Shown here piece by piece: positions 32,908 through 33,876 of a DNA stretch of 64,000 bases. This DNA is from the human T2T-CHM13v2.0 reference genome, Homo sapiens: positions 1,632,001 to 1,696,000 of the forward strand of contig CP086569.2 in assembly GCA_009914755.4 (NCBI GenBank). The letters run 5' to 3'. The notes beneath the pieces are model-generated. The model saw only the letters and a list, made by a program, of their open reading frames with translations, was not told where the DNA came from and did not search any database. Positions within the stretch are counted from its first letter, which is position 1. Every line of letters begins with the position of its first letter. The translations under genes and the position numbers were made by a program.

Positions 32908-33876
32908 GGCCGGGCACGGAGGCTCACGCCTGTAATCCCAGCACTTTGGGAGGCCGAGGCAGGTGGATCACAAGGTCAGGAGATCGAGACCAGCCTGAGC
33001 AAAATGGTGAAACCCCGTCTCTATTAAAAATACAAAAATTAGCTGGGCACGGTGGCTCACGCCAGGAATCCCAGCACTTTGGGAGGCCAAGGTAGGCAGA
33101 TCACAAGGTCAGGAGATCGAGACCAGCCTGAGCAATATGGTGAAACCCTGTCTCTACTAAAAATACAAAAATTATCTGGCTCACGCCAGTAATTCCAACA
33201 CTTTGGGAGGCCGAGGCAGGCAGATCACCTGAGGTCAGGAGTTTGAGACCAGCCTGGCCAACATGGTGAAACCCCATCTCTACTACAAATACAAAAATTA
33301 GCCAGGCGTGGTGGCTCACGCCTGTAGTCCCAGCACTTTGGGAGGCCGAGGCAGGCGGATCACAAGGTCAGGAGATCGAGACCAGCCTAACATGGTGAAA
33401 CCCTGTCTCTACTAAAAATACAAAATTTAGCTGGCTCACGCCAGTAATCCCAACACTTTGGGAGGCTGAGGCGGGTGGATCACCTGAGGTCAGGAGGTTG
33501 AGACCAGCCTGGCCAACATGGTGAAACCCCATCTCTACTACAAATACAAAAATTTGTCAGGCATGGTGGCTCACACTTGTAATCCCAACACTTTGGGAGG
33601 CTGAGGCAGGCGGATCACCTGAGGTCAGGAGTTTGAGACCAGCCTGGCCAACATGGTGAAACCCCATCTCTACTACAAATACAAAAATCAGCCAGGCATG
33701 GTGGCTCATGCCTGTAGTCCCAGCTACTTGGGAGGCTGACAGAGGAGAATCACTTGAACCCGGGAGGCAGGGGTTGCAGTGAGCTAAGATCCTGCCACTG
33801 CACTCCAGCCTGGGTGACATAGTGAGACTTGGTTTCAATAATAATAATAATAATAATAATAATAATAATAATAAAT
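32908..33876 (+). mobile_element. Tandem array of ~7 Alu LEFT monomers (period ~125-135 bp) capped by one right monomer and a (TAA)n tail, flanked by a 12-bp TSD
   Basis: GGCTCACGCC..GTAATCCCA(G/A)CACTTTGGGAGGC(C/T)GAGGC.GG..GATCAC(AAGG/CTGAGG)TCAGGAG.T.GAGACCAGCCTG..CAA.ATGGTGAAACCC..TCTCTACTA.AAATACAAAAATTAGC recurs 7 times. Only the last copy continues into GGGAGGCTGACAGAGGAGAATCACTTGAACCCGGGAGGCAGGGGTTGCAGTGAGCTAAGATCCTGCCACTGCACTCCAGCCTGGGTGACATAGTGAGAC. TSD AAATTGTTCTAG at 32889 and 33877. Confidence 0.85.

What the first reader, a model, noticed from the sequence alone, without database searches (positions are those of the whole stretch)
32908..33876. Alu whose LEFT monomer has been tandemly amplified ~7-fold inside a single insertion site
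Between one pair of perfect 12-bp TSDs (AAATTGTTCTAG at 32889 and 33877) there is one right monomer with a (TAA)n tail, but about 7 head-to-tail left monomers of ~125-135 bp. Two monomer variants alternate: variant a (..CACAAGGTCAGGAGATCGAGACCAGCCTGAGCAA..) and variant b (..CACCTGAGGTCAGGAG(T/G)TTGAGACCAGCCTGGCCAACATGG..). Units 2 and 4 share a private deletion (..CTGGCTCACGCCAGTAAT.CC(A)ACAC..). This implies that an a+b dimer of ~255-260 bp was itself re-duplicated.

The locus therefore records at least two rounds of unequal exchange within one Alu, after it inserted into an L1. A second, independent example (4 left monomers, with its own TSD) lies at 59186-59880.
Basis: seen in the sequence. 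Interest (0 to 1): 0.6.

Follow-up and report, generated by a model that had tools for sequence, protein, structure and literature searches.

The report
Old tandem arrays of Alu left halves
A human Alu repeat sitting inside an L1 fragment really does carry six tandem copies of its left half, but these come from two unrelated Alu left halves that were later multiplied by unequal recombination, all ordinary and already-described processes.

Summary
Window 32908-33876 has six (not about seven) head-to-tail Alu left monomers, one right monomer and an (AAT)12 tail. A perfect 14-bp target-site duplication flanks it. Removing the insert restores a colinear L1 ORF2 reading frame. The unit order is a a b a b b, not strict alternation. 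The shared 9-bp deletion lies at the A2/A3 and A4/A5 junctions, so an a+b dimer of about 255 bp was re-duplicated.

The second array (59185-59877, four left monomers) is also real. An independent human contig is 100% identical across it.

In both arrays the left monomers form two lineages no more alike than unrelated Alus in this window. In array A they carry different subfamily markers. In array B the junction is linker position 133 joined to Alu position 1, which is the published hotspot for sense Alu-into-Alu insertion.

Best model: a second Alu inserted at the linker of a resident Alu. Right-arm recombination then removed one right arm and the inner tail. Unequal exchange in the known Alu recombination hotspot then expanded the left units, roughly 10-25 Myr ago.

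No function is indicated. This is a new example of known kinds, and interest is low.

The parts
32887..32900 (+). 5' target-site duplication of array A (ATAAATTGTTCTAG)
   Evidence: Identical 14-mer at 33875-33888.
32901..32907 (+). 7-bp filler TGTAAAT between the TSD and Alu position 1
   Evidence: Read directly. It is not part of L1 or Alu. Extra 5' nucleotides are an inference.
32908..33053 (+). Alu 5' head (32908-32920) plus unit A1, type a, with junction TTAGCTGGGCACGGT
   Evidence: Alignment, 7SL hit at 32909-33023, junction view.
33054..33177 (+). Unit A2, type a body with a b-like head (GCCAG). It ends in the junction carrying the 9-bp deletion.
   Evidence: Column 10 T>A is shared with A3 and A5, while column 20 onward is type a.
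33178..33312 (+). Unit A3, type b (AluSx-like: CACCTGAGG, GAGTTTGAG)
33313..33432 (+). Unit A4, type a body with a right-arm-like head (GCCTGTAGTCCCAGC) and a private 4-bp deletion. It ends in the same 9-bp-deleted junction.
33433..33567 (+). Unit A5, type b, sister of A3 (shares GCCAGTAAT and the deleted junction)
33568..33702 (+). Unit A6, type b, adjacent to the right arm
33703..33836 (+). The single right monomer (AluS-type, 23/146 mismatches to AluSx). Its head, GGCTCATGCC, is left-arm-like.
   Evidence: 7SL hit at 33691-33836, 67 bits.
33837..33874 (+). A-tail turned into an (AAT)12.7 microsatellite
   Evidence: TRF.
33875..33888 (+). 3' target-site duplication of array A
32690..33930 (+). 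Host L1 ORF2 fragment (inverted 5' segment of a minus-strand L1), interrupted by array A
   Evidence: With 32901-33888 removed, 83 aa align without gaps to human L1 ORF2p residues 1119-1201, E = 2.7e-26. The minus-strand piece at 32440-32600 covers residues 1198-1237.
59172..59185 (+). 5' TSD of array B (AAAGTCATGCACGG)
   Evidence: Matches 59878-59891 with two transition differences.
59185..59596 (+). Array B units B1-B3 (133 bp each), one lineage sharing private changes. Junctions read TACAAAAA|G(G/A)CC.
59597..59731 (+). Unit B4, a left monomer unrelated to B1-3 (20-22 of 108 differences). It is followed by a normal TTAGCC linker.
59732..59877 (+). Right monomer and short A-rich tail of array B
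59878..59891 (+). 3' TSD of array B (AAAGTCATACATGG)

Best explanation
Both loci are old, fixed Alu composites in the human genome, built in three stages.

1. A resident AluS inserted by L1-mediated retrotransposition. For array A the target was an L1 ORF2 fragment, and this insertion made the outer TSD.
2. A second Alu inserted in the sense orientation at or next to the end of the resident Alu's A-rich linker, the known Alu-into-Alu hotspot. This gave left(host)-left(new)-right(new)-An-right(host). Homologous recombination between the two right arms then removed one right arm and the inner poly(A), leaving two unrelated left monomers, one right monomer, one tail and one TSD pair.
3. Unequal homologous exchange between misaligned monomers multiplied the left units. 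The crossovers fell in the first ~40 bp of the monomer.

One parsimonious history for array A is:
- start from a-b-R;
- a b x a exchange makes A2 (b-head, a-body);
- a 9-bp slippage deletion (TGGGCACGG, between TGG repeats) occurs in the junction after A2;
- an R x A2 exchange duplicates A2-A3 as A4-A5, so A4 has an R-head and an a-body;
- one more exchange adds A6.

In array B only the host-side lineage was triplicated (B1-3).

Shown: the anatomy, the two lineages, the within-lineage copying and the junction types. Inferred: the nested insertion, the right-arm deletion, the order of events and the dating (about 10-25 Myr ago). No function is indicated, and I treat the arrays as neutral by-products.
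For: - Array and TSDs.
- Single occupied site in L1.
- Within-lineage copying: b-b pairs differ at 6 of 108 positions (0.4% of random window pairs are as close), a-a at 6-10, B1-3 at 9-14. Units share private non-CpG changes and a shared 9-bp junction deletion.
- Two unrelated lineages per array: a-b 10-17, B4 vs B1-3 20-22, against a random 16.7 +/- 3.8. Distances between lineages roughly equal the sum of their distances to the consensus.
- Different subfamily markers in a and b.
- The array B junction is TACAAAAA (consensus position 133) followed by GGCC, position 1. In array A the head after the a-type linker is left-arm type (GGGCACGG, from GGGCGCGG).
- The hybrid heads of A2 (switch between Alu positions 24 and 34) and A4 (positions 28 to about 37) fall inside the published Alu recombination hotspot at positions 24-45.
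- The window is exceptionally rich in tandem duplications and holds other multi-Alu structures inside single TSD pairs.
- Array B is identical in an independent human contig.
Against: - Neither array retains a second right arm or an inner poly(A), so the nested-insertion stage needs an unobserved deletion in both arrays.
- An in-situ duplication made very soon after insertion would leave the same 'unrelated' distances. With about 11-12 changes per lineage, the data only bound the delay to roughly the first 20% of the element's age.
- The array A junction keeps TTAGC. It can therefore also be read as a normal left-to-right junction produced by homologous exchange.
- A1's own head and the a-type junction share GGGCACGG. 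That could be a shared derived CpG change favouring in-situ duplication.
- No orthologous primate sequence could be obtained.
- Array A has no independent assembly confirmation.
Confidence: 0.55

Rival explanations
1. One Alu inserted, and its own left monomer was duplicated by unequal exchange between its left and right arms soon after insertion. All units descend from that monomer. The type-a markers arose by gene conversion from another Alu, or by parallel mutation.
For: - One TSD pair, one right arm and one tail.
- The array A junctions keep TTAGC, as expected from a left/right homologous crossover.
- GGGCACGG is shared by A1's head and the a-type junction.
- The window is prone to tandem duplication.
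Against: - No reliable derived change is shared across the lineages in either array.
- Between-lineage distances equal those of unrelated Alus.
- Type a differs from type b exactly at subfamily-diagnostic sites: a 2-bp CT deletion and T>A in GAGTTCGAG.
- The array B junction lacks TTA and starts at Alu position 1, outside any left/right homology.
- The first duplication would have to be very early in both arrays.
Confidence: 0.2
2. Chimeric retro-insertion. During one target-primed reverse transcription event, L1 ORF2p copied a full Alu RNA to its 5' end. It then switched template to a second Alu RNA or to a left-monomer (scAlu-like) RNA ending in the A-rich linker. This produced left-left-right in a single insertion, which DNA-level unequal exchange later expanded.
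For: - A single TSD pair surrounds two unrelated left arms, of different subfamilies in array A.
- The array B junction is exactly an A-run followed by Alu position 1.
- Template-switch chimeras with a full-length, sense-oriented 5' partner are documented for U6/L1 and Alu/L1.
- No secondary deletion is needed.
Against: - I found no report of left-monomer/Alu chimeras in the four paper searches that bear on this.
- The same junction is predicted by the far more common linker-hotspot insertion, with about 15,759 cases.
- The two cannot be told apart from this sequence alone.
Confidence: 0.15
3. Independent insertions of free left Alu monomers (FLAM-like), one after another.
For: Each unit ends in an A-rich stretch. 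A lone left monomer exists at 41367-41494.
Against: - There are no TSDs and no tails beyond the native A5TACA5 linker.
- Units share private mutations and a private junction deletion.
- Hybrid heads indicate crossovers.
Confidence: 0.02
4. Assembly artefact: a mis-expanded Alu.
For: Array A could not be found in any independent contig.
Against: - Units differ from each other by 5-15%, with unit-specific indels. An assembler does not invent these.
- Array B is 100% identical over 811 bp in an independent human contig.
Confidence: 0.02

Closest known systems
Sense Alu-into-Alu self-insertion at the linker hotspot (Levy et al. 2010, PMC2836564; Abrusan et al., cited there)
   Same: Two Alu left arms lie in the same orientation. 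The second starts right after the A-rich linker of the first: exactly position 133 in array B, and 2-6 nt later in array A. There is no visible inner TSD, and the left arms are unrelated to each other.
   Different: The canonical nested structure keeps both right arms and the inner poly(A). Here only one right arm and one tail remain, and the left units were further multiplied.
TE-derived tandem repeats / Alu-derived minisatellites and satellites (Ahmed & Liang 2012, PMC3389668; Jurka & Gentles 2006, as cited)
   Same: A segment of an Alu is repeated head to tail and expanded locally by duplication of neighbouring units.
   Different: The unit here is a whole left monomer plus linker (120-135 bp). 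Copies are only 83-88% alike, below the 95% cut-off of that catalogue. The array is old and built from two founder sequences.
Alu recombination-mediated deletion/duplication with a hotspot at Alu positions 24-45 (Han et al. 2007, PMC2041999)
   Same: Hybrid units A2 and A4 switch parentage inside that hotspot. The proposed loss of one right arm is a small ARMD-type event.
   Different: The exchanges here are between monomers of one composite element, 120-390 bp out of register, not between separate Alus. Most of them produced gains.
Chimeric retro-insertions made by ORF2p template switching (U6/L1, Alu/L1; PMC13174262)
   Same: One TSD pair encloses parts from different RNAs. The 5' partner is full length and in sense orientation.
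   Different: No L1 part is involved. The partner would be an Alu left monomer, a type not described in the papers I could search.
Origin of dimeric Alu by fusion of free left and free right monomers (Quentin 1992; from my own knowledge, and listed as a reference)
   Same: Modular joining of 7SL-derived monomers through an A-rich linker.
   Different: That fusion created a mobile family. These arrays are single-locus products with no sign of having been copied elsewhere.

Membership tests
Alu SINE insertion (L1-mediated) | 7SL-derived left and right monomers joined by an A-rich linker | tested here: met
   Six Rfam Metazoa_SRP hits cover all seven monomers on the + strand, E = 2e-16 to 5e-5, all below the gathering score.
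Alu SINE insertion (L1-mediated) | 3' A-rich tail and flanking target-site duplication | tested here: met
   (AAT)12.7 tail. Perfect 14-bp TSD for array A; 14-bp TSD with two transitions for array B. The empty-site reconstruction restores L1 ORF2p colinearity.
Alu SINE insertion (L1-mediated) | Canonical dimer: exactly one left and one right monomer | tested here: not met
   6 left + 1 right (array A); 4 left + 1 right (array B).
Alu-into-Alu self-insertion at the linker hotspot | [quoted passage not shown] | tested here: met
   Array B: TACAAAAA(133)|GGCC. Array A: AAAAATTAGCT|GGGCACGG, 2-6 nt after position 133, with a left-arm-type head. Hotspot as described.
Alu-into-Alu self-insertion at the linker hotspot | The two left arms are independent copies (no shared post-insertion mutations) | tested here: met
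   Between-lineage distances equal those of random pairs. Site patterns.
Alu-into-Alu self-insertion at the linker hotspot | The inserted Alu keeps its own right arm and poly(A), followed by the host right arm | tested here: not met
   Only one right arm and one tail in each array. A secondary right-arm recombination has to be assumed.
TE-derived tandem repeat | At least 2 head-to-tail copies of a TE segment, more like each other than like other genomic copies | tested here: met
   TRF. Within-lineage distances of 6-10 against a random 16.7.
TE-derived tandem repeat | At least 95% identity between units (the criterion of the Ahmed & Liang catalogue) | tested here: not met
   83-88% matches. 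Criterion quoted.
Independent free-left-monomer (FLAM) insertions | Each monomer has its own A-tail and TSD | tested here: not met
   Junction views show only the native linker and no direct repeats.
Template-switch chimeric retro-insertion | Both parts entered in one event (the same presence/absence pattern across species) | not testable with these tools
   No primate orthologues are reachable. The collections returned only human contamination contigs.

The most novel reading that the evidence does not exclude
The left-left-right founders of both arrays were made in a single retrotransposition event. L1 ORF2p jumped from the 5' end of a full Alu RNA onto a left-monomer (scAlu-like) or second Alu RNA. 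This would be a modern replay of the monomer fusion that created dimeric Alu, and would suggest that such trimers are a recurrent, unrecognised class of chimeric insertion.
Probability: 0.13. Interest if true: 0.5.

Novelty: new member of a known kind. Interest (0 to 1): 0.22.

Why it matters
The finding matters mainly as a caution and a small case study.

- A single TSD pair around many Alu monomers does not show that one element was amplified. Insertions into the A-rich linker or tail of a resident Alu keep the outer TSD.
- The two arrays give a readable record of how a nested Alu pair can be trimmed and then grow into a satellite-like array with a 120-135-bp unit. The growth occurred by exchanges in the known Alu recombination hotspot, in a region crowded with other tandem repeats.
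- The model gives testable predictions for ape and monkey orthologues.
- The arrays have no evident functional consequence.

Tried and rejected
- Exact-protein look-ups for six ORFs in or near array A (33557-33907-, 33101-33319-, 32276-32680-, 32190-32552+, 34496-34732+, 37183-37560-) found nothing.
- Two further look-ups returned only short human-gut-metagenome contigs that do not reach array A.
- Exact DNA scans for the array A 5' junction and 3' flank in metagenome contigs, and for the A2>A3 junction in prokaryotic genome contigs, gave no hits. Copy-number variation and orthologues of array A therefore could not be examined.
- Pfam found nothing in the short L1 translations. The PDB sequence search did.
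- Seven paper searches found no paper naming left-monomer arrays as a class. Kojima 2011, 'Alu monomer revisited', is not held.
- The idea that type a was copied from a neighbouring Alu in the window was rejected. No window Alu carries CAC--AAGG + GAGATCGAG + ACCAGCCTG together.
- A retrotransposing multi-left-monomer family was rejected. Arrays A and B share no private changes (mean A-B distance 16.1, the same as random).
- Period 390 as a real higher-order unit was rejected. The order a a b / a b b does not repeat.

Full report
**1. What is there**

Window 32908-33876 is a head-to-tail array of Alu monomers. TRF reports period 135 x 6.3 copies (83% matches, score 1026), period 255 x 3.0 (88%, score 1150) and period 390 x 2.1 (86%). 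It also reports an (AAT)12.7 run at 33837-33874. Independently of my memory of Alu consensus sequences, Rfam's 7SL model hits the + strand across all seven monomers between 32909 and 33836. There are six hits, because one of them (33301-33537) spans A4 and A5.

Anchoring on the motif GGCTCAC gives units starting at 32921, 33054, 33178, 33313, 33433 and 33568. These are six left monomers of 133, 124, 135, 120, 135 and 135 bp. A right monomer follows from 33703. So there are six left monomers, not about seven.

The TSD is a perfect 14-mer, ATAAATTGTTCTAG, at 32887-32900 and 33875-33888. Seven extra bases, TGTAAAT, lie between it and Alu position 1.

Deleting 32901-33888 restores an 83-residue translation that aligns without gaps to human L1 ORF2p residues 1119-1201 (E = 2.7e-26). 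The whole array therefore occupies one site in an L1 fragment.

**2. Species and independent confirmation**

An ORF spanning the right arm and 3' flank of the second array occurs with the exact same product in two ENA metagenome contigs, one of them labelled human gut metagenome. Other window ORFs also occur in human-gut metagenome contigs. The window is therefore human.

The 10.2-kb contig L001 matches window 54100-64000 at 99.2%. It is 100% identical over 811 bp covering array B and both flanks. Array B is thus not an artefact of one assembly.

Array A could not be found elsewhere. Its units differ by 5-15% and have unit-specific indels, which argues against an artefact.

**3. Two variants and the re-duplicated dimer**

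Units A1, A2 and A4 (type a) have CAC--AAGG and GAGATCGAG. Units A3, A5 and A6 (type b) have CACCTGAGG and GAG(T/G)TTGAG, plus private CCAACAC, CCCCAT and ACTACAAAT. The order is a a b a b b.

Every a unit is followed by the junction TTAGCT(GGGCACGGT). Every b unit is followed by a junction of the form TTAGCCAGGC(G/A)TGGT. The nine bracketed bases are missing after A2 and after A4. A3 and A5 also share GCCAGTAAT. The deletion lies at the heads of the third and fifth units.

**4. Signs of unequal crossover**

- A2 has the b-type head (T>A at column 10, Alu position 24) but an a-type body from column 20 (position 34).
- A4 has GCCTGTAGTCCCAGC, the head of this element's right arm, followed by an a-type body.
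- Both switches lie inside the Alu recombination hotspot at positions 24-45 reported for Alu-mediated deletions.

There are no TSDs or tails between units. Independent monomer insertions are therefore excluded.

**5. The units do not all descend from one left monomer**

I projected 50 left monomers of the window onto 108 consensus positions. For the random baseline I set aside the units of arrays A and B and of arrays C and D (section 9). Unrelated pairs then differ by 16.7 +/- 3.8, with a 5th percentile of 11.

| Comparison | Differences of 108 |
|---|---|
| b-b pairs | 6 (0.4% of random pairs are as close) |
| a-a pairs | 6-10 |
| a-b pairs | 10-17, mean about 13 (19.5% of random pairs are as close) |
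| B1-B3 pairs (array B) | 9-14; also five shared non-CpG private changes |
| B4 vs B1-3 (array B) | 20-22 |

Site patterns show no reliable derived change shared across the lineages in either array. Between-lineage distances roughly equal the sum of the distances to the consensus.

Type a differs from type b at the positions that, from memory, separate AluSc/Sg from AluSx. Each array therefore has two founders that are as unrelated as any two Alus, or that separated within roughly the first fifth of the element's lifetime.

**6. Junctions point to a nested insertion**

In array B the junctions read TACAAAAA|G(G/A)CC. This is the last A of the linker, position 133 in my consensus numbering, followed by Alu position 1, without the TTA of a normal left-to-right junction. 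No left/right homology exists there, so a homologous crossover would not produce this junction.

Levy et al. analysed nested repeats genome-wide. [quoted passage not shown] Array B fits this exactly.

In array A the sequence after the a-type linker is a left-arm-type head: GGGCACGG, one CpG transition from GGGCGCGG but two changes from the right-arm GGGCGTGG. It lies 2-6 nt past position 133.

**7. Best model and rivals**

Best model:
- A resident Alu received a second Alu at its linker.
- Recombination between the two adjacent right arms removed one right arm and the inner tail.
- Unequal exchange then multiplied the left units.

The weak point is that the right-arm deletion is unobserved and is needed in both arrays.

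Rivals:
- A single chimeric insertion by ORF2p template switching, as documented for U6/L1 and Alu/L1 chimeras (about 0.15).

This sequence alone cannot separate the three. Orthologous primate loci would.

**8. Age and function**

I scaled by the window's mean left-monomer divergence from consensus (10.3 of 108 positions), with an assumed AluS age of roughly 35 Myr (my own knowledge). The within-lineage copies then date to roughly 10-25 Myr ago. This is an inference, and gene conversion would bias it young.

The a units and most array B units keep Pol III B-box-like sequence, while the b units carry a CpG-decayed version. Neither array contains TTTT, and the first one after array A is at 33930. 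Nothing suggests a function.

**9. Context**

The window has about 55 Alus and is unusually dense in tandem repeats:
- a 45-bp x 92 VNTR;
- a 58-bp x 62 VNTR;
- several (TCTA)n-derived blocks;
- a tandem [Alu + about 50 bp of flank] x 2.8 ('array D', 2011-3033; its first two Alus share private changes, the third Alu is unrelated although the flank motif recurs);
- four whole Alus inside one TSD pair at 39335-40652 ('array C'), whose left arms are mutually unrelated.

This explains why two left-monomer arrays occur within 64 kb. It also shows directly that one outer TSD pair can enclose several independent Alus.

**10. Comparison with what is known, and verdict**

TE-derived tandem repeats are catalogued by the thousand in the human genome: 7,276, with 2,663 tied to Alu. 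Alu-into-Alu insertions and Alu-Alu recombination are textbook processes.

I found no paper that names arrays of whole left monomers as a class. Even so, every step here belongs to a known kind. This is a new example of known kinds, and interest is low (0.22).

Noticed in passing
window 39335-40652: Four full-length Alus lie head to tail (TRF period 323 x 4.0) inside one TSD pair, AAAGGGATTTCAG / AAAGGATTTCAG. Their left arms differ by 11-18 of 108 positions, like unrelated Alus. This looks like serial insertion into A-rich tails (or very early duplication) rather than recent amplification.
   Followed up: partly
window 2011-3033 (minus strand): A tandem repeat of period 349 x 2.8 whose unit is an Alu plus about 50 bp of non-Alu flank (AAAAGCAGTATCTGG.TACTGATAGA.TATTTAAAA.GTGATTGCAG). 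The first two Alus share 6 non-CpG and 8 CpG private changes, indicating DNA-level segmental tandem duplication. The third Alu is unrelated.
   Followed up: partly
window 43403-47315 and 50713-54330: Two very large minisatellites: 45-bp unit x 92 copies (88% matches) and 58-bp unit x 62 copies (82%). The first creates spurious ORFs of more than 800 aa on both strands.
   Followed up: no
window 20464-23392 and 27696-30540: Kilobase-scale degenerate (TCTA/AGAT)n and related blocks. Together with the VNTRs, they make the window look like a subtelomere-like, tandem-repeat-prone region. The chromosomal location was not determined.
   Followed up: no
window 57719-58208: An Alu truncated at consensus position 219 (…GGAGGTGGAGG) is joined directly to position 1 of a complete Alu with its own poly(A). 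No obvious TSD flanks the composite. This could be another Alu-Alu junction at an RNA 5' end, or a recombination product.
   Followed up: no
window 41367-41494: A lone AluS-type left monomer (consensus positions 1-126, about 90% identity). It ends at the start of the A-rich linker, with no right arm and no clear TSD.
   Followed up: no
window 32440-32680 (minus) and 32690-33930 (plus): The host L1 has a 5' inversion. The plus-strand piece covers ORF2p residues 1119-1201, and the adjacent minus-strand piece covers 1198-1237, a 4-residue overlap. This is typical of twin priming.
   Followed up: partly
window 33217-33277, 33472-33532, 33607-33667: Sub-threshold Rfam mir-1285 matches (about 31-33 bits against a gathering score of 56) occur in the three type-b units only, not in the type-a units. 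These are Alu-derived miRNA-family resemblances and probably meaningless.
   Followed up: no
window 48259-48758: A non-Alu tandem duplication, period 235 x 2.1 at 95% identity. It is the youngest-looking duplication in the window.
   Followed up: no
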